From the NCBI GenBank assembly GCA_965231015.1, contig OZ246408.1, positions 857,908-921,907 on the forward strand: a stretch of DNA of 64,000 nt, read 5' to 3'. The DNA comes from an uncultured Gammaproteobacteria bacterium. Its GTDB lineage: Bacteria; Patescibacteriota; Patescibacteriia; UBA9934; CAZDDW01. Positions 36,323 to 56,232 of this stretch are shown here, piece after piece. The translations under genes were made by a program, and so were the position numbers. The notes beneath the pieces are model-generated. The model was not told where the DNA came from. It was given only the letters and a program-made list of their open reading frames with translations, and ran no database searches. Every line of letters begins with the position of its first letter. The first letter of the stretch is position 1.

Positions 36323-37060
36323 TTACTTTGATTTTTTCACTACTTTTTCAATAAACAAATTTGGAATACGGTTAGCGTGCGGTGAACGCATTAATTTTTT
36401 TTCTACTTCCTTGCGTTCGCCTGAATTAAAAAAATATTTTCTTTCGTAGTACGTTAAACGGATCACCACATCCGAATGATCTAATTCAGGATGAAACTGA
36501 AAGGCATAAATTGGTTCACCCGGAAAAACAAACGCTTCACAGCACTTATTTGCAGAGCTAACCAATTCAATAGCTCCATCCGGCACTTTTGTCACAGAAT
36601 GATTATGCCCAATTTGCACATGAAAAGATCCTGGCAACTCACCAAGCAACTGATCCGTTACTGCGTGAAGGGTTTTTTTCATTTCAATTGAACCAATTTC
36701 TTTTAAATTATCATCTTGTACTACAGTTCCTCCAAAAGCAAGAGCTGCCACTTCATGTCCGTAACCAATAGCTAATAAAGGAATTTGCTTCGCCCGAATA
36801 ATTTTTAAAAGTTCCATAATTTGAGGCAAGCTTTCTGGATGACCTCCCCCTTTAACATAACGGCCAGTCCCAGCCAGGATCACAGCATCCTTACCTTCCA
36901 ACAAGTGCTCTCCAATTTCATCAGTGAAAACATTAACGCGAAAAAAATTTTCCTGTGGCACGTCAATCATTCGGTCAAAACACAAAAATTCATGTTCACT
37001 CATTTCATCATCACGCGCTTGCAGGAAAAGAATTTTAATATTGTCTTTTTCTTTGCTCAT
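36323..37060 (-). CDS. GATase1-like protein, paralog of 12164..12895 with nucleophile Cys replaced by Tyr
   Basis: LLAIGYGHEVAALAFGG aligns to FLGVCLGVGFLTAHGGG (C->Y); AFQFHPELD retained. Confidence 0.7.
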   Translation of the reverse strand: MSKEKDNIKILFLQARDDEMSEHEFLCFDRMIDVPQENFFRVNVFTDEIGEHLLEGKDAVILAGTGRYVKGGGHPESLPQIMELLKIIRAKQIPLLAIGYGHEVAALAFGGTVVQDDNLKEIGSIEMKKTLHAVTDQLLGELPGSFHVQIGHNHSVTKVPDGAIELVSSANKCCEAFVFPGEPIYAFQFHPELDHSDVVIRLTYYERKYFFNSGERKEVEKKLMRSPHANRIPNLFIEKVVKKSK

Positions 37061-37112
37061 AGGTCTTCCAAGACGCTAGCAGATTTTTTGGTTTTTGTCC
37101 ATTGTTCGGGTC

Positions 37113-37138
37113 TAAAAAACGCGCCTGTGCGCGTTTTT
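37113..37138 (-). terminator. rho-independent terminator (AAAAAACGCGC-ACAG-GCGCGUUUUUU) at 3' end of ncRNA candidate
   Basis: perfect GC stem flanked by A-run and U-run. Confidence 0.6.
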
Positions 37139-37440
37139 TATTCATCCATCCAAGATGGTCGCGTCGACCCCCTGTGGGCTTGTCGAACCACACGGAATCG
37201 ACACACCATCTTACGCCATAATGCGGTAAGCACGCCGACGTATTGGAGCTTCGCCAGATTGGGCTGCAATGGCTCTTTCCCAATATGGGTGTATCCCGCT
37301 TCCAAGTCACGGTGGGTGCAGCCGTAGCCACAGGACCGTGTTGGATGCGGTGCGAACCGCTTTCAGATCTTACCCCGCGCGGACGGGGGTCCAATCTTAG
37401 TTTTGAAAGTTAATGCCCGTTGCAGTTACCAATCTGTGAA
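37139..37440 (-). ncRNA. structured ncRNA candidate (~260-300 nt, ~56% GC); RNase P RNA-like helix layout but unclassified
   Basis: Minus-strand extended -10 TGTTATAAT (rc of 37448-37456) upstream and intrinsic terminator downstream. Nested long-range helices AAGAUUGG/CCAUCUU and GACCCCC/GGGGGUC, hairpin GCGGU-UCGC-ACCGC, long-range 7-bp CCUGUGG/CCACAGG pairing next to 3' end (P4-like). Canonical RNase P motifs not clearly present; no tmRNA tag ORF. Confidence 0.4.
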
Positions 37441-37477
37441 GCATTGATATTATAACATATATTTAGCTAAATCAAGG

Positions 37478-37505
37478 ACTAAAATAGAGGGTTTATACCC
37501 CTCTA
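37478..37505 (-). terminator. rho-independent terminator downstream of the M20 peptidase gene
   Basis: AUAGAGGG-loop-CCCUCUAU hairpin followed by UUUUAGUCC on minus strand. Confidence 0.5.
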
Positions 37506-37543
37506 TTCCACAACTTTTTCCCCAGGTTTATCAACAGCTAAAC

Positions 37544-38635
37544 TTATTTTTGACTGGACCTATGCTTAAGAAAAGCTTCAATGAATTTAGCCAACCGAAC
37601 CAATTGACGCACCGGCTGCTCCTCAAAACGGCTGTGCATTTTACGCGCACCATACCCGGTATTAACTGTTACGATTCCCTTGCCATTAAAAATATTGGCA
37701 TCGGCTCCGGCGTTAGAAACATTCTGTTTTGTCTTCCATCCAAGCAACTTGTGAACTGAACGGATTTCTTTAATCAGTGGATCAGTCATTTTAAACTGAT
37801 AGCCGGGTAGCTCGAAACTGACCTCGAGCTTCGAGCTAACCACATGTTGTTTTTTGATTCGAAACAACTCGGCCTTTACCTTGTTGTTTAATTGATCAAG
37901 TCTTGTTTTACGAAGGCTCCGAATTTCCCCCCTCACCATACACTCATCCGGAACAATATTACTCGCTTCCCCCCCTTCGATCCGACCAAAGTTCATGGTT
38001 GTATCTTTATCGACACGACCAAGTTTGAAACTTGATATAAAATCAGCGGCAGCAGCAATAGCGTTACGTCCGTCTTCCGGATGTGCCCCGGCGTGAGCAG
38101 ATTTGCCTTTGAAGTTCACGGTGAACATGGTGGCATAGGGTGAAGCCAGAACTACAGTCGGCACATCAGTTCCGCGATCAAAACACAAAGCTTGTTTTGA
38201 TTTCAATTTGGAAGTGTCTAGCTCGCGGGCTCCAAACAAACCAATCTCCTCTTGAACCGTAATAACGATTTCGGTTGCTGGAAACTTTTCACCGTCTTCC
38301 TTAAGCGAAGTCAGGGCCTCAATAATTCCAGCTATAGCAGATTTATTATCCGCGCCACAAACTCCCTTGCCCCAGTTACCAATCACCCCATTACGAACGG
38401 TCGGAGTTGACCCACCGTTATTTAAAACTGTATCCATGTGCGCAGCCAGCATAATAGGTCGTCCAGAACCATTAATCTTCCCAATAATGTTTCCCATCTT
38501 GTCCTGACAGAGAGAATTACAAAACGGCTTTAACTGCCGCATAATTTCTTTGGCAATCTTAGCTTCTTTAAGTGAGGGACTATCAATCCCTCCGAGTTTA
38601 ATGAAATTTTTAGTGATTCGTTTTTGGTTGATCAT
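37544..38635 (-). CDS. M20-family metallopeptidase (peptidase T / tripeptidase-like); start at MINQKR
   Basis: HMDTV, GADNKS, EEIG metal-binding motifs. Confidence 0.8.
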   Translation of the reverse strand: MINQKRITKNFIKLGGIDSPSLKEAKIAKEIMRQLKPFCNSLCQDKMGNIIGKINGSGRPIMLAAHMDTVLNNGGSTPTVRNGVIGNWGKGVCGADNKSAIAGIIEALTSLKEDGEKFPATEIVITVQEEIGLFGARELDTSKLKSKQALCFDRGTDVPTVVLASPYATMFTVNFKGKSAHAGAHPEDGRNAIAAAADFISSFKLGRVDKDTTMNFGRIEGGEASNIVPDECMVRGEIRSLRKTRLDQLNNKVKAELFRIKKQHVVSSKLEVSFELPGYQFKMTDPLIKEIRSVHKLLGWKTKQNVSNAGADANIFNGKGIVTVNTGYGARKMHSRFEEQPVRQLVRLAKFIEAFLKHRSSQK

Positions 38636-38643
38636 AGTTTTAA

Positions 38644-38672
38644 AAAGTAGATGGCTGCGCGCAGTGGGCCTA
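38644..38672 (-). terminator. GC hairpin (GCUGCGCG...CGCGCAGC) + U-run downstream of ATP-grasp-like gene
   Basis: inverted repeat 38644-38672 followed on minus strand by CAUCUACUUUUUAAAA. Confidence 0.4.
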
Positions 38673-38748
38673 CTACGCGCAGCCGGAGGATCGAGACGAA
38701 GGAGAGTTACACCTCGTATCTTCACTATAGCACAGCGGGGCGCTTTGG

Positions 38749-40068
38749 CTAAGGAGTGAGTTCTGATTGATCAGCTTGTTCGACTTCGAGAGCATAGAGC
38801 TCCTGAAGCGATCCGGCGATCATGTACATGCTAACCTTGCCCTCAGCAAGTGAAGCCGCATTTGCCAAAGCAATCCCGGGCTTTCCATCACCCTGATAAG
38901 CTCGGCCATTCAAAACATTATCCACCACGTCCTTGTAGGCCATGCCTTTTGGAACCTGGGTGTTCAGAAGCGTCACCGCCACGTTGCCACCGAAGCGATC
39001 AATGACCTGCATGGCACAAGCCGCCGCACTGTCAGCCGCGATCTTGCGAGCGTTGACTTCGAGCACGAAGACAACAACCTCGCCTGCGTGGTGCACCACG
39101 ATCAGATCGACTCCGATAGTGCGTGGACGATCAACCCCAATGCCGAGCTGAACCGCCTGCCGACCGATCACGTCTACAATGGGTCGGGCGACGATCCATT
39201 CCTTGGCCGGAATAACAGACTCGCCAAACGCGGTACGGTCACCAATGTGGGCGTCTCCGTCCGTGAGCTGTTCGGCCGAAAACAACACCCGATGTCGATC
39301 CTTTTCTACGAGAAGCACCACGGCTACCTCGTGCATGTCAAAGCGGTCTCGCGGATATCCAGCCTCAGCAATCAACCCGTGGTGCAGGTGAGTACGCAGA
39401 AAATCACTAACTTCGGCCCTGTCCTTCTCCGGAGTCCATCGAAGGATACCATCTCCCCCATCAAAGCCCGGTCGCTTCAAAAAGATGGTGTCCGTCTCGG
39501 GCAAACCACGATCGGCCACGTCATGCTCAATGAGACGGCGCACTCGTTTGATCTCTTCGATCGTGCTCACAAAACGCCAAGGAGCAAATACTCCGGTTCC
39601 GTTGGCAAGCACTCGAGCTTCCAATTTATCATCGAGCTTGACGGCAATCTTGGGGTGAGGCGCAGTGATCTGTTCGGGACGCAGACCAAGTGCCTGGGGT
39701 AGCTGCTCAACATCACGACGGATGAAAAAGTCCAAGTCATGTCCGGCTTCAGTAAAACTCTGCATGATTCGCAGTAATTCCGGTGAGTCGGTAATAGCCT
39801 GGCTGATGTTAGCCTCACTAACCAGGATGAGATCTTTGGCCCCGACCTGCATTCGCTGATGATCAGTATGACAGGCCTCGATGTTTGATCGGGCTTGTTC
39901 ATTTGCTACACAGACCGCGGCTACATGCGGGTAGATCATACCGCGGCTCGGGTACCCGGGCAGAAGTCCCGAGATCCCGTGCAGAAAATGAAACGGATAC
40001 ATGTCGTGAACGTGCACCTCGGGATTGAGATACACCTGATCCAACAAGGCTCGTTTGTTAGAATCCAT
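38749..40068 (-). CDS. ATP-grasp-like protein (putative carboxylate-amine ligase); start at MDSNKR
   Basis: C-terminal LIVVHHAGEVVVFVLEVNARK resembles ATP-grasp Mg/ATP-binding strand (vlEvN). Confidence 0.4.
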   Translation of the reverse strand: MDSNKRALLDQVYLNPEVHVHDMYPFHFLHGISGLLPGYPSRGMIYPHVAAVCVANEQARSNIEACHTDHQRMQVGAKDLILVSEANISQAITDSPELLRIMQSFTEAGHDLDFFIRRDVEQLPQALGLRPEQITAPHPKIAVKLDDKLEARVLANGTGVFAPWRFVSTIEEIKRVRRLIEHDVADRGLPETDTIFLKRPGFDGGDGILRWTPEKDRAEVSDFLRTHLHHGLIAEAGYPRDRFDMHEVAVVLLVEKDRHRVLFSAEQLTDGDAHIGDRTAFGESVIPAKEWIVARPIVDVIGRQAVQLGIGVDRPRTIGVDLIVVHHAGEVVVFVLEVNARKIAADSAAACAMQVIDRFGGNVAVTLLNTQVPKGMAYKDVVDNVLNGRAYQGDGKPGIALANAASLAEGKVSMYMIAGSLQELYALEVEQADQSELTP

Positions 40069-40227
40069 GTTATTCTGGGCCCCCTGTTTTGTTGTATGGT
40101 CCTTGACTTTTAACAAAGTCACAAATAAGTAAAAACAATTTTTAACCATTTGTGAATTTGTTAAACAGTCGGCCGCGGACTCAAGGTTCATTTATGAAAC
40201 CCTGGGTCCGCGAACCGAGAAGACTAG

Positions 40228-41469
40228 TCACCAGTTGAGCTCGGCGTGACGCTCGTACACCGCATCCCGCACCCGAGCCATGCTGTCAAAATCCGGACCA
40301 AAAGTCGCGAAGTAACAACTTCCGCACTGTGGCAGGAAGTTATAAGGGACAAGCCCGAGCCGGGTCTGCACGGTGAGCAACTGATCTGCGAAGGCGTTCA
40401 GAATCTCGGAGTAGTCAATGTCCTGCGGAATCTTCATGTTGCGATTATCAAAAGCCGCCACCCGACCGTACAGGAAATAGCTGGCCGTCACCGGATAGTA
40501 GGTGGCCGTGGCTCGACCATCGACCTCGCAGGTGGCCACCTCCCCGGTCGTGAAGTTGATCATGTGGTCAGCCCCACCGCGGCCGAAAAAACCCATTGCC
40601 TTCAAACACGCAATAGACTTTTCCGTAGCACACATGACCTTCTTGTAGATCTTGGACGGCAGATTCTTTGGCAAAGTGAAGCTACCGGCGAAATCCGTTT
40701 CGTCACCATCGGTCAAGATGTGCTGACCAAATACACCAAGAATCTCATGGGCTCCCCTCGGGTAAATTACGAACGGGGTCGAGATATCCTGGTCGTGCGG
40801 GAAGTATTCCTGAACCACTACCAGTTCGTCAGTCAGATTTCTGAGTCGCTCATCCTCTTCGCTCGTGACATTGAACTGTCCAAGACTGCTAGCCTGGCTG
40901 GTCGGCTTGATTCGTACCTTCTCGAAACGCCCAAGACTGAGCAAGTGGCGCACGAGTGAGCCAACATGAGCCGGTGTGGTGAAACCGCCCACCGGCACCC
41001 GCAGACCCTTAATGCTCCGACCTACCGTTTTGAAACCAGCTCCGTTTCGAAAATAGCACTCACCCATATTCTGCTGAAACACATCCTTGCTGTTGGCCTG
41101 CCGGCATGTTTTGAACGGCGGCAAGTTCACAGGTACATCCAGCCAACAAAATGCTTCACGTAGCCGTGTGGTACGACCGGAAAAAAATTCAATGTCAGAC
41201 CGGCGAAGCACCTCCAAATGGGCTTGCTTTTCCACAGACACGCTCCGACTCAATCCGGCATCATGAATTCGCAGTCGAATGAGGTGATCTGGCGGACAGC
41301 AAAGACCAAGTGAAGCCAAATGAGGCAGTTCGGGCAAATCGTCCTCTCCGACCACCAACAGATAATTGTTTGGCCCAGTCGCTATCGCGGCTCGACGCCA
41401 GTACTCCATCAACTGCCAAGGCATGTTGTCGATAGAATCGACAGTATCATGAGCCAACACGATGGTCAT
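40228..41469 (-). CDS. second ATP-grasp-like / GspS-like hypothetical protein; start at MTIVLAHD
   Basis: ELVVVQEYF and GADHMINFTTGEVATCEVDGR segments reminiscent of ATP-grasp core; weak. Confidence 0.35.
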   Translation of the reverse strand: MTIVLAHDTVDSIDNMPWQLMEYWRRAAIATGPNNYLLVVGEDDLPELPHLASLGLCCPPDHLIRLRIHDAGLSRSVSVEKQAHLEVLRRSDIEFFSGRTTRLREAFCWLDVPVNLPPFKTCRQANSKDVFQQNMGECYFRNGAGFKTVGRSIKGLRVPVGGFTTPAHVGSLVRHLLSLGRFEKVRIKPTSQASSLGQFNVTSEEDERLRNLTDELVVVQEYFPHDQDISTPFVIYPRGAHEILGVFGQHILTDGDETDFAGSFTLPKNLPSKIYKKVMCATEKSIACLKAMGFFGRGGADHMINFTTGEVATCEVDGRATATYYPVTASYFLYGRVAAFDNRNMKIPQDIDYSEILNAFADQLLTVQTRLGLVPYNFLPQCGSCYFATFGPDFDSMARVRDAVYERHAELNW

Positions 41470-41919
41470 TAAAACCCCCTGGTGATTAGTTGTATTTAAA
41501 AGAGCAAGATTACTCTCCCCAAGTGAAGACGCGCTCAAATGGGGCACCGATTCCCGTTAGAAGGGACGAGCGCTTGTAAAAAGCTGCTCAGCCAGTTCGA
41601 CTGGCATTGGTGAACACGTCTTCGCTTGGAAAGGCCACTTAGTAAAACAAAACTGCCGCACTTCATTTAGCGCGGCAGTTGAAATCAAACTAACAGGAAC
41701 TAGTTTATTCAACCACCGACGCACCAATGACAAAGTAAAAAGCGCGGCAATTGTGCCAGAGCATAATGGTCTTGTCAATTGATACGTGGGAATTTTTCAT
41801 ATTTCAATGGATAAAATGATACCCTACGCTTAAATACGTGTCAAATAGGCTTATCTACACCTCTTGAAAAAAATACACATATGGACTATAATGAGGCCAA
41901 AATTAGATATACTCTATTT

Positions 41920-56128: not shown

Positions 56129-56232
56129 TGGTGAGGCCAGATGGAATCGAACCATCGACCGCTGGGGCTCCTCTGGACCATCTAGAACTTGACGACCCAT
56201 ACCCAGTGCTCTACCAGCTGAGCTATAGCCTC
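56129..56232 (-). tRNA. tRNA gene (104 nt, CCA-encoded) with ~28-nt insertion/intron-like segment in the anticodon-loop region; isotype undetermined
   Basis: acceptor GAGGCUA/UGGCCUC, U8A9, D-arm GCUC-AGCUGGUA-GAGC, anticodon stem CUGGG/CCCAG separated by 35 nt instead of 7, variable CGGUC, T-arm GAUGG-UUCGAUU-CCAUC, discriminator A + CCA. Confidence 0.55.

What the first reader, a model, noticed from the sequence alone, without database searches (positions are those of the whole stretch)
37113..37456. GC-rich structured ncRNA candidate 1 with extended -10 promoter and intrinsic terminator; RNase P RNA-like helix layout
The 480-nt intergenic region holds a ~300-nt block at ~56% GC with no ORF. 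On the minus strand it starts after TGTTATAAT and ends at a textbook terminator. It has nested terminal helices (AAGAUUGG/CCAUCUU and GACCCCC/GGGGGUC) and a hairpin GCGGU-UCGC-ACCGC. A long-range 7-bp CCUGUGG/CCACAGG pairing sits beside the 3' strand, preceded by ACAAG (compare RNase P ACAGAA-P4). This mimics the P1-P2-P3-P4 arrangement of RNase P RNA, but canonical motifs (GGAAAGUCC, AGGGCAGG) are not evident and ~260 nt is short. I found no tmRNA tag ORF.
Basis: partly seen in the sequence, partly recalled or inferred. Interest (0 to 1): 0.6.

Follow-up and report, generated by a model that had tools for sequence, protein, structure and literature searches.

The report
New structured RNA gene in CPR bacterium
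The flagged stretch is a real, conserved, highly folded non-coding RNA of about 300 bases from a small group of ultra-small (Uhrbacteria-like) bacteria. It matches no known RNA family and is not RNase P RNA. It always sits next to an enzyme-like gene that has lost its catalytic cysteine.

Summary
Window 37114-37442 (minus strand) is a GC-rich, ORF-free, very stable RNA (z = -8.4) with an extended -10 promoter and an intrinsic terminator.

Eleven homologous loci from Uhrbacteria-like CPR bacteria carry it, and covariation supports one fold. A roughly 25-bp long-range helix P1 closes a four-way junction (H1, H2, H3) with conserved joining strands. An optional hairpin H4 follows, then a long hairpin H5 capped by an invariant CGACAAG loop.

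Elsewhere they sit at chance, and the same bases pair locally. Rfam 15 gives no match at E<=10, and ARAGORN finds no tmRNA.

The RNA always precedes a class-I glutamine amidotransferase (GATase) homologue whose catalytic Cys is Gly in all 18 family members. That gene has its own promoter in six lineages, and I found no antiterminator pairing. Three phased DnaA-box-like sites lie upstream of the RNA promoter in all ten lineages.

Best reading: a stand-alone RNA of a new family, probably acting with the neighbouring pseudo-enzyme. Its function is untested.

The parts
37504..37536 (-). Three DnaA-box-like 9-mers in direct repeat with exact 12-nt phasing: TGTTGATAA 37528-37536, TGGGGAAAA 37516-37524, TGTGGAATA 37504-37512. 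Putative regulatory array upstream of the RNA promoter.
   Evidence: The same three-box array, 12-14 nt apart, lies 70-107 nt upstream of the RNA 5' end in all 10 lineages (L035 has a perfect TTATCCACA). There are 15 matches with <=1 mismatch against 0.5 in shuffles. It is the only such array in the 64-kb window, and shuffled windows give none.
37481..37504 (-). Terminator-like hairpin of the upstream M20 peptidase gene (AGAGGGGTATAAACCCTCT + TTTT). It separates that gene from the RNA promoter.
   Evidence: An equivalent hairpin is present in L002, L004, L006, L037 and L045 (sequences).
37449..37457 (-). Extended -10 promoter TGTTATAAT of the RNA gene. The predicted start is about 37442-37444.
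   Evidence: TGnTATAAT is invariant in all 10 lineages at a fixed distance (12 nt from the T of TATAAT to the G of GCUUC) from the first base of P1.
37415..37442 (-). P1 5' strand (GCUUC-A-CAGAUUGG-UAA-CUGCAA-C-GGGC).
   Evidence: It pairs with 37248-37273; helices 1-3 are 84-95% paired, and 7 of 24 pairs show changes on both sides (for example CUGUGA/UUACAG in L006, GGUUGG/CCAACC).
37398..37414 (-). J1, an A/U-rich joining strand with a semi-conserved UUUCAA.
37365..37397 (-). H1, a hairpin of variable sequence and length.
   Evidence: All 8 counted pairs (helices 4 and 5) change on both sides. The base is AGAUU/GAUCU in the window, GAGAC/GUCUC in L004 and GGUUC/GAACC in L035.
37351..37364 (-). 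J2, carrying the near-invariant CGGUUCGC.
   Evidence: CGG(U/C)UCG is present in all 11 sequences that cover it.
37296..37350 (-). H2, a long irregular hairpin with a GGC/GCUG inner stem. The tip is variable, and L006, L035 and L043 carry an extra hairpin there.
   Evidence: helices 7-10. The inner stem is 93.6% paired. The outer stems covary (UCCAA/UUGGA, UUGUCAG/CUGGCAA, GCGAUACG/CGUAUUGC).
37290..37295 (-). J3 (GAUACA in the window, consensus GGUAUA).
37279..37289 (-). H3, a short hairpin (CCC-AUAUU-GGG).
   Evidence: helix 11. It covaries as CCC/GGG, CCAAA/UUUGG and UAUC/GAUA.
37248..37278 (-). J4 (AAAGA) plus the P1 3' strand (GCCAUUGCAGCCCAAUCUGGCGAAGC). This is the most conserved block of the RNA.
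37213..37241 (-). H4, an optional hairpin. It is present in window, L002, L004, L006, L037, L042 and L045, absent in L033, L035, L043 and L039, and replaced in L007.
   Evidence: The stem covaries (ACGUC/GGCGU, ACCAC/GUGGU, CACUC/GAGUG).
37152..37212 (-). H5, a long hairpin whose 10-nt loop UUCGACAAGC (37178-37187) holds the invariant CGACAAG.
   Evidence: 96.5% of cells are paired against 41-57% when the partners are slid, and 8 of 16 pairs change on both sides. L002 and L006 carry an ~85-nt insertion that adds further hairpins, one capped by UCCGACAAG. In L006, L007, L033, L035, L039 and L043 the H5 stem is followed directly by a U-run.
37114..37139 (-). Intrinsic terminator of the RNA gene (stem CGCGC/GCGCG flanked by an A-run and a U-run).
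   Evidence: A separate terminator of unrelated sequence occupies the same place in L002, L004, L037, L042 and L045.
37073..37101 (-). Predicted separate promoter of the downstream gene (TGGACA, 17-nt spacer, extended -10 TGCTAGCGT).
   Evidence: TGnTAnnnT with a -35-like hexamer 17 nt upstream is present in window, L002, L004, L006, L042 and L045. L039 has TTGACA-N17-TAACAT in front of purC.
36323..37060 (-). Neighbouring gene: a class-I glutamine amidotransferase (GATase) homologue lacking the catalytic cysteine (IGYGHE instead of G-x-C-x-G). It is always immediately downstream of the RNA, with purC inserted between them in one lineage.

Best explanation
This is a stand-alone gene for a structured non-coding RNA of about 300 nt, and it belongs to no described family.

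Transcription and ends:
- Transcription starts about 37442-37444, from an invariant extended -10 promoter.
- That promoter lies downstream of a phased array of three DnaA-box-like sites.
- Transcription ends at the terminator at 37114-37139. In short-form relatives it ends at the H5 stem itself.

Fold:
- The 5' end pairs with the middle of the RNA in a ~25-bp interrupted helix (P1).
- P1 closes a four-way junction of three hairpins. The joining strands are the most conserved bases: CGGUUCGC, GGUAUA, GGGAAAGAGCC.
- Downstream, hairpin H5 displays an invariant CGACAAG loop. Two lineages carry extra copies of this loop.

Shown: the transcript signals, the fold, its conservation, and its constant position next to one gene family.

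Inferred: the RNA acts in trans as a folded particle. The junction would form a compact core, and the CGACAAG loop(s) would be the recognition element for a partner. The most likely partner is the product of the adjacent Cys-less GATase-fold gene, or the pathway it belongs to. DnaA may tune its expression.
For: Structure and conservation:
- z = -8.4 for the fold.
- Ten homologues fold independently into the same P1/H1/H2/H3/(H4)/H5 architecture.
- Domain 1: 58 pairs, 80.2% of cells paired against 31-41% when slid, 26 pairs with double changes against 5-13, and 0 of 500 shuffles reach the covariation score. The MAFFT-only alignment shows the same helices.
- H5: 96.5% paired against 41-57% when slid.

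Separate transcription unit:
- An invariant TGnTATAAT sits at a fixed distance from P1.
- There is a terminator after H5 in every lineage.
- A -35/17-nt/extended -10 promoter lies between the RNA terminator and the next gene in six lineages, and a canonical TTGACA-N17-TAACAT precedes purC in L039.
- L042 has ~290 nt and a further hairpin element between the RNA and the gene.
- The RNA is most elaborate (H4, H5 insertions) exactly where it is insulated from the gene.

Not a terminator/antiterminator switch: the P1 3' strand pairs no better with the H5 5' strand than with shuffles (8 of 9 lineages weaker).

H5 is functional, not just a terminator: its stem and loop sequences are conserved, and the loop motif is duplicated in L002 and L006.

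Link to the neighbour:
- The RNA is immediately upstream of the same ortholog group in 11 of 11 lineages, while both outer neighbours change.
- All 18 members of that group have Gly for the catalytic Cys, whereas the nearest relatives and the tandem paralogue keep Cys.
- The group collapses into a single 50%-identity cluster among 1.84 billion representatives.

Single copy in the window.
Against: - There is no expression data, so the 5' and 3' ends are predicted only.
- Only 10 full and 2 partial homologues are available, and all are related, so covariation counts are not independent events. Alignment A5 was fitted to the model.
- Constant placement upstream of one gene family on the same strand is the classic signature of a cis-regulatory leader.
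- In four short-form lineages only 22-45 nt separate the H5 U-run from the start codon. The promoter there (TGnTAnnAAT) is weaker evidence.
- Nothing tested here shows any contact between the RNA and the GATase-like protein or DnaA.
- Distribution outside the GATase-anchored loci could not be assessed. The two large pattern scans returned only chance hits plus one known locus.
Confidence: 0.55

Rival explanations
1. It is a cis-acting leader of the GATase-like gene. This could be a large riboswitch whose four-way junction binds a metabolite. It could also be a protein-dependent attenuator, in which the gene product or another protein binds the CGACAAG loop of H5 and sets termination at the H5 U-run, as PyrR does on pyr leaders.
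For: - The RNA is always upstream of, and co-oriented with, the same gene family in 11 of 11 lineages.
- The most conserved bases lie in the junction, as in riboswitch aptamers.
- In L006, L007, L033, L035, L039 and L043 the H5 stem plus U-run is itself the terminator. In four of these it lies 22-45 nt before the start codon.
- The neighbouring genes suggest amide or nucleotide metabolism: a GMP-synthase-subunit-A-like fold, purC, an M20 amidohydrolase and ATP-grasp-like proteins.
Against: - Six lineages have a second, unrelated terminator and then a well-formed promoter before the gene. L042 has ~290 nt and another element in between. The RNA is nevertheless fully conserved in those lineages.
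- There is no conserved antiterminator pairing.
- The H5 stem and loop are conserved in sequence and expanded in two lineages, which is unlike an expression platform.
- No known riboswitch model matches.
Confidence: 0.25
2. It is a strongly diverged, shortened RNase P RNA, of the kind reported for some CPR genomes.
For: - The size (about 250-330 nt) is in the range of the smallest bacterial RNase P RNAs.
- GGGAAAGAGCC loosely recalls the CR-I motif GGAAAGUCC, and ACAAG precedes a helix strand.
- CPR RNase P RNAs can fall below Rfam thresholds and need manual refolding (PMC8172020).
Against: - The proposed P1, P2 and P4 pairings are not kept in homologues, at 2-5 of 7 pairs.
- The supported fold pairs the 5' end with the middle of the RNA, and the 3' third is a local hairpin.
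- The GGGAAAGAGCC-adjacent strand pairs with the 5' leader, not with a 3' strand preceded by ACAGAA.
- No P7-P12 specificity domain is present.
- No RNase P model scores above about 11-13 bits in the window or in L043. Matches of 12.9 bits were listed, and nothing was listed. Note that the diverged CPR forms in PMC8172020 were recovered with RF00010 at a 5-bit threshold, so a match between 5 and ~11 bits is not excluded here.
- The family is confined to a very small clade and tied to one accessory gene, which is unlike an essential universal RNA.
Confidence: 0.03
3. The locus is primarily a DnaA-binding element, either a titration or reactivation site or an accessory origin-like site. The transcript would then serve that role, for example by transcriptional activation or R-loop formation, rather than acting as a folded RNA.
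For: A unique three-box, 12-nt-phased DnaA-box-like array is conserved in all ten lineages next to a very strong promoter.
Against: - There is no GC-skew switch, and the flanking genes are co-directional.
- Extensive compensatory base changes show selection on the RNA fold itself.
- Whether the boxes bind DnaA is untested.
Confidence: 0.05

Closest known systems
Orphan large structured bacterial ncRNAs (raiA motif RNA, OLE, ROOL, GOLLD; Rfam families)
   Same: A stand-alone gene with its own promoter and terminator. It is about 200-600 nt, has a multi-helix fold strongly supported by covariation, has conserved joining strands, has a narrow phylogenetic range, and its biochemical function is unknown.
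   Different: No sequence or structure match to any of them. It is much rarer, being known only from about 11 CPR lineages. It is strictly linked to one neighbouring gene family, which those RNAs are not.
Junction-type riboswitch aptamers with a terminator expression platform (e.g. SAM-I, lysine, NiCo/czcD, yybP-ykoY)
   Same: A P1 helix closes a multi-way junction whose joining strands are the most conserved bases. A hairpin plus U-run follows. It is always upstream of one gene family.
   Different: The P1-closed domain is about 195 nt, larger than these aptamers. No antiterminator alternative is present. A separate promoter for the gene exists in most lineages. The 'terminator' hairpin has a conserved and duplicated loop.
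Bacterial RNase P RNA (Rfam RF00010/RF00011), including the diverged CPR forms of PMC8172020
   Same: Similar size to the smallest members, GC-rich in an AT-rich genome, strong promoter and terminator, and an A-rich GGGAAAG element next to a long-range helix.
   Different: Different topology. There is no P1/P2 pairing of the two ends, no P4 pseudoknot, no S-domain and no CR-I to CR-V. No model score was listed.
PyrR / pyr leader type of attenuation (an enzyme-fold protein binding a conserved hairpin loop in a leader RNA)
   Same: A conserved hairpin loop sits upstream of a gene for an enzyme-fold protein that may have lost catalysis. The hairpin can act as the terminator.
   Different: This is an analogy only. 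No binding has been shown, the RNA is far larger than a PyrR binding loop, and the gene appears to have its own promoter.

Membership tests
Bacterial RNase P RNA (type A/B) | Match to the covariance models RF00010/RF00011 (diverged CPR forms were still recovered with RF00010 at a lowered threshold, PMC8172020) | tested here: not met
   There is no RNase P hit at gathering score or at E<=10. Hits down to 12.9 bits were listed for other families, and none for RNase P in the window or in L043. A match between 5 and ~11 bits cannot be excluded with this tool.
Bacterial RNase P RNA (type A/B) | P1/P2 helices pairing the 5' and 3' ends | tested here: not met
   The proposed P1 pairs 7/7 in the window and 2-4/7 in nine homologues. 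P2 pairs 3-5/7. The 3' strands pair locally in H5.
Bacterial RNase P RNA (type A/B) | Long-range P4 helix flanked by CR-I (GGAAAGUCC) and CR-V (ACAGAA) | tested here: not met
   CCUGUGG/CCACAGG pairs 3-5/7 outside the window and L002. CCACAG instead covaries with the adjacent GUGUGG (UGCUG/CAGCA, UGCCU/GGGCA). The GGGAAAGAGCC-adjacent strand pairs with the 5' leader.
Bacterial RNase P RNA (type A/B) | Specificity domain (P7-P12 with CR-II/CR-III) | tested here: not met
   The covariation-supported fold has only three hairpins inside P1, and none carries those motifs.
Bacterial RNase P RNA (type A/B) | pre-tRNA 5' cleavage; a single essential copy per genome | not testable with these tools
   There is no biochemical assay, and the rest of the 1.0-Mb contig could not be fetched.
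tmRNA | tRNA-like ends plus a tag reading frame | tested here: not met
   ARAGORN finds only three tRNAs in the window. There is no Rfam tmRNA hit.
SRP RNA / 6S RNA | Match to the Rfam models; a rod-like fold with domain IV motifs (SRP) or a central bubble (6S) | tested here: not met
   no hit. The fold is a four-way junction plus hairpins.
Transcription-terminating riboswitch | Constant position in front of one gene family, on the same strand | tested here: met
   11 of 11 lineages. purC lies in between in L038/L039.
Transcription-terminating riboswitch | The RNA is the 5' UTR of the regulated gene, with no promoter in between | tested here: not met
   Six lineages have a second terminator followed by a -35/17-nt/TGnTAnnnT promoter, and L039 has TTGACA-N17-TAACAT. 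This is inconclusive for four short forms. It rests on sequence only, with no transcript data.
Transcription-terminating riboswitch | Mutually exclusive terminator and antiterminator pairings | tested here: not met
   The duplex energy between the P1 3' strand and the H5 5' strand is no better than shuffled controls (weaker in 8 of 9 lineages).
Transcription-terminating riboswitch | Ligand binding by the aptamer | not testable with these tools
   This needs in-line probing or ITC.
Stand-alone structured ncRNA gene | Own promoter and own terminator, conserved with the RNA | tested here: met
Stand-alone structured ncRNA gene | Secondary structure maintained by compensatory changes; no conserved ORF | tested here: met
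   Insertions and deletions between homologues fall in hairpin tips and are not multiples of three.
Stand-alone structured ncRNA gene | A discrete stable transcript in cells | not testable with these tools
   No transcriptome data are available here.

The most novel reading that the evidence does not exclude
The RNA and the adjacent Cys-less GATase-fold protein arose together in one small Uhrbacteria-like clade and work as a ribonucleoprotein. The protein would have lost glutaminase chemistry and would now bind the CGACAAG loop(s). The four-way-junction core would supply a sensing or catalytic function, and production of the particle would be coupled to DnaA status through the phased box array. 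This would be a previously undescribed RNA-pseudoenzyme system in CPR bacteria.
Probability: 0.2. Interest if true: 0.8.

Novelty: categorically new. Interest (0 to 1): 0.55.

Why it matters
Large, intricately folded bacterial RNAs are rare, and those whose function has been worked out have mostly proved to be ribozymes, riboswitches or parts of ribonucleoprotein machines. CPR/Patescibacteria have tiny genomes and little room for dispensable sequence, and almost nothing is known about their non-coding RNAs beyond diverged rRNA and RNase P RNA.

This locus gives a concrete, experimentally tractable candidate. It combines a ~300-nt RNA with a well-supported fold, a defined conserved loop motif, and a candidate protein partner that is a pseudo-enzyme. 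It also has a putative DnaA-controlled promoter.

The interest is limited by the very narrow distribution and by the absence of any functional test.

Tried and rejected
- **Rfam 15.** The whole window at gathering scores gave only three tRNAs. Permissive E<=10 scans of 701 nt, of the 307-nt core and of the L043 homologue gave only terminator-driven noise or nothing.
- **ARAGORN for tmRNA.** None found.
- **Genome-contig scan** with AGAGCCATTRCAGSCCARYC. Of 24 hits, 23 were chance matches and one was the already known L008 contig. Later homologues showed that the motif varies, so the pattern was too strict.
- **Metagenome-contig scan** with a promoter-plus-leader pattern that fits all ten known sequences. 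It gave two chance hits.
- **Viral-contig scans** and BLAST against phage and plasmid collections. Nothing real was found, so the RNA is not a mobile-element RNA in those sets.
- **Complementary targets** of the CGACAAG loop in the window. No enrichment.
- **oriC reading of the DnaA-box array.** No GC-skew switch, and the genes are co-directional.
- **Antiterminator search.** Negative.
- **Identity of the two conserved upstream proteins.** No Pfam, NCBIfam or PDB sequence match. Profiles gave only weak ATP-grasp hints. The single-sequence AlphaFold model was unusable at pLDDT 35, so no fold search was run.
- **Literature.** No paper in the held library describes such an RNA in Uhrbacteria or CPR.
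Full report
**What is there**

On the minus strand, the 483-nt gap lies between an M20-family peptidase gene (37544-38725) and a class-I glutamine amidotransferase (GATase) homologue (36323-37060). It holds a block of 53-58% GC in a 40-45% GC background. TGTTATAAT lies at 37449-37457, and a hairpin with flanking A- and U-runs lies at 37114-37139. The 335-nt stretch between them folds at -150.9 kcal/mol against -107.1 +/- 5.2 for dinucleotide shuffles (z = -8.4). So the raw observation is real: a GC-rich, ORF-free, strongly structured segment with promoter-like and terminator-like ends.

**Source organism and homologues**

Names attached to the closest protein relatives point to Candidatus Uhrbacteria / Patescibacteria. 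The window comes from a 1.0-Mb NCBI contig. I looked up contigs that encode homologues of the downstream protein. This recovered the same RNA in ten further lineages:
- Full length: L002, L004, L006, L007, L033, L035, L037, L043 and L045.
- Partial: L042, and L038/L039.

The proteins of these lineages are only 51-90% identical to the window's. The RNA is single-copy in the window and in each locus.

**The fold**

MFE folds of the ten full-length sequences, computed independently, give one architecture.
- A long interrupted helix P1 forms between the 5' leader (GCUUC / CAGAUUGG / CUGCAA / GGC) and the central block (GCC / AUUGCAG / CCAAUCUG / GAAGC).
- P1 closes a four-way junction with a variable hairpin H1, a long hairpin H2 and a short hairpin H3.
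- The joining strands carry the most conserved bases: CGGUUCGC, GGUAUA and GGGAAAGAG.
- An optional hairpin H4 follows.
- A long hairpin H5 ends the RNA. Its 9-10-nt loop holds an invariant CGACAAG.

On a MAFFT-only alignment, RNAalifold recovers P1 and the H2 inner stem, with 10 of 29 pairs showing compensatory change. The model-based alignment of domain 1 covers 12 sequences and 58 pairs:

| Measure | Observed | 3' partners slid |
|---|---|---|
| Cells paired | 80.2% | 31-41% |
| Pairs with changes on both sides | 26 | 5-13 |
| Covariation score | 0.237 | 0.06-0.09 |

No shuffle out of 500 reaches the observed covariation score.

For H5 (9 sequences, MAFFT only), 96.5% of cells pair against 41-57% when slid. 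Eight of 16 pairs change on both sides. One apical pair occurs as five different standard pairs. In L039 the lower stem reads UGUAUCGG/CCGGUGCA instead of UGUGUCGA/UCGACGCG.

Caveats: the sequences are few and related, and alignment A5 leans towards the model.

I mapped the three long-range pairings onto the alignments:

|---|---|---|
| AAGAUUGG/CCAUCUU | 7/7 | 2-4/7 |
| GACCCCC/GGGGGUC | 7/7 | 3-5/7 |
| CCUGUGG/CCACAGG | 7/7 (also L002) | 3-5/7 |

About 2.6 of 7 pairs is expected by chance. L002, the closest relative, already changes four bases of the first 5' strand with no change in the 3' strand. All three 3' strands are parts of H5. H5 pairs locally in 24 of 27 helix-by-lineage blocks, with a single mismatch in the other three. 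The RNase P-like P1-P2-P4 layout is therefore an accident of this one sequence.

**Known families**

- Rfam 15 gives only three tRNAs at gathering scores over the whole window.
- Permissive scans list only weak matches driven by the terminator hairpin.
- Scans of the 307-nt core and of the divergent homologue L043 list nothing at E<=10.
- Matches of 12.9 bits were listed, so any RNase P, tmRNA, SRP, 6S, T-box or riboswitch similarity lies below roughly 11-13 bits.
- This matters because CPR RNase P RNAs are known to be diverged, yet were still recovered with RF00010 at a lowered (5-bit) threshold (PMC8172020). A match between 5 and ~11 bits cannot be excluded with this tool.
- ARAGORN finds no tmRNA.
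- The topology also differs from RNase P RNA. The 5' end pairs with the middle of the RNA, the 3' third is a local hairpin, and there is no specificity domain.

**Transcription unit**

TGnTATAAT is invariant, and the first base of P1 lies at a fixed distance from it in all ten lineages. The 3' end comes in two forms.
- Long forms (window, L002, L004, L037, L042, L045): H5 is followed by a separate terminator of unrelated sequence.
- Short forms (L006, L007, L033, L035, L039, L043): the H5 stem is followed directly by a U-run and serves as the terminator.

Between the RNA's terminator and the next start codon, six lineages have a -35-like hexamer, a 17-nt spacer and TGnTAnnnT. L039 has TTGACA-N17-TAACAT before purC. 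L042 has about 290 nt, including another promoter-hairpin-terminator element.

The four remaining short forms share TTTTTTATGnTAnnAAT, which is a weaker promoter candidate. In L035 and L043 there is no Shine-Dalgarno sequence in the 22 nt before the ATG.

A search for an antiterminator found pairing of the P1 3' strand with the H5 5' strand no better than shuffled controls (weaker in eight of nine lineages).

Taken together, the RNA is best read as its own gene. It is fully conserved, and even more elaborate, in lineages where it is insulated from the downstream gene. That is hard to reconcile with a purely cis-acting role.

**Context**

The outer neighbours change between lineages.
- Upstream of the RNA: an M20 peptidase, an unknown protein, or a GATase paralogue.
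- Downstream of the GATase-like gene: an M50 protease, a NUDIX protein, or a MurA-like protein.

The RNA nevertheless always directly precedes one ortholog group of GATase homologues, with purC inserted in one lineage.
- The protein's closest solved relatives are GMP synthase subunit A.
- All 18 members read IGYGH(E/Q), where class-I GATases have G-x-C-x-G. The catalytic Cys is Gly, while the His and Glu are kept.
- The tandem paralogue found upstream of the RNA in four lineages keeps Cys, as do most of the nearest outgroup proteins.
- Among 1.84 billion 50%-identity representatives the ortholog group is a single cluster. The next relative is only 35% identical.

So a rare pseudo-enzyme and a rare RNA are always adjacent. 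This is the basis for proposing a functional partnership, but it is inference only.

**DnaA-box array**

In all ten lineages, three DnaA-box-like 9-mers lie 70-107 nt upstream of the RNA 5' end. They match TGTGGATAA with at most two mismatches, and L035 has a perfect TTATCCACA. They stand in direct repeat 12 nt apart (14 nt for the first interval in L035, L043 and L007). There are 15 matches with at most one mismatch, against 0.5 in shuffles.

It is the only such array in the window, and shuffled windows give none. It travels with the RNA whatever the upstream gene is. There is no GC-skew switch and the genes are co-directional, so this is not oriC. A DnaA-controlled promoter is the simplest reading, but it is untested.

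**H5 insertion**

L002 and L006 are not each other's closest relatives, yet they share a homologous ~85-nt insertion in the H5 tip. It adds three hairpins, one again capped by UCCGACAAG. The window, a close relative of L002, lacks it. Repetition of the loop motif suggests a recognition element for a partner rather than a passive terminator loop. No enrichment of complementary sites was found in the window.

**Verdict**

The feature is real and is a new RNA family as far as the tools can tell. The RNase P interpretation is rejected. The most likely mechanism is a trans-acting folded RNA tied to the adjacent Cys-less GATase-fold protein and possibly DnaA-regulated, held with moderate confidence. 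A cis-regulatory leader remains a serious rival, especially for the short forms.

Distribution beyond the protein-anchored loci could not be established. The two large pattern scans returned only chance hits and one known locus.

Noticed in passing
window 36323-37060 (-); alignment A9: The GATase homologue downstream of the RNA has Gly in place of the catalytic Cys (IGYGHE) in all 18 family members. The tandem paralogue in L006, L007, L035 and L037 keeps Cys, as do most of the nearest outgroup proteins checked (about 30 of 40). The family is a single 50%-identity cluster among 1.84 billion representatives.
   Followed up: yes
window 37504-37536 (-), and the equivalent position in L002, L004, L006, L007, L033, L035, L037, L043, L045: There are three phased (12-nt) DnaA-box-like sites upstream of the RNA promoter. 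The array is unique in the window and conserved in all ten lineages, and there is no GC-skew switch, so it is not oriC.
   Followed up: partly
window 56132-56232 (-): tRNA-Arg(UCU) carries about 34 extra nucleotides in the anticodon arm. They fold as an extension of the anticodon stem, and ARAGORN and Rfam delimit the gene differently. This is too short for a group I intron, and its nature is unexplained.
   Followed up: partly
window 38749-40191 (-) and 40228-41547 (-); homologues L007:459-1760 and L004:1214-2431: Two conserved proteins of 405-480 aa lie upstream of the RNA locus and have no Pfam, NCBIfam or PDB sequence match. There are weak profile hints of an ATP-grasp fold (an EVNAR-type motif; E = 0.13-1.4). 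The single-sequence AlphaFold model was unusable (pLDDT 35).
   Followed up: partly
L042:245-500: About 200 nt are inserted between the RNA terminator and the GATase promoter. The insert has its own TTGAAA-N17-TACGAT promoter, a long hairpin (GCUUCAGAGUCGAUCGAG... / ...CUCGAUCGACGCUGCAAGC) and a terminator. It may be a second small RNA or a degenerate partial duplicate of the RNA.
   Followed up: no
L002:2775-2860 and L006:2785-2870: A homologous ~85-nt insertion sits in the tip of H5. It is shared by two lineages that are not sisters and is absent from the window, which is L002's close relative. This implies repeated loss or transfer of an RNA module.
   Followed up: partly
L035:2982-3003, L043:773-794, L037:2930-2957: The GATase-like genes start 6 nt after a TGnTAnnn(T/A) element and have no Shine-Dalgarno sequence, which suggests leaderless mRNAs. 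The annotated GTG start of the L037 gene is probably wrong, and an ATG 46 nt upstream restores the conserved N-terminus.
   Followed up: partly
L038:199-1152 and L039:264-1217: In one lineage a SAICAR synthase gene (purC) with a canonical promoter and a strong Shine-Dalgarno sequence sits between the RNA and the GATase-like gene. With NDK and NUDIX genes nearby in other loci, this hints at a nucleotide-metabolism context.
   Followed up: no
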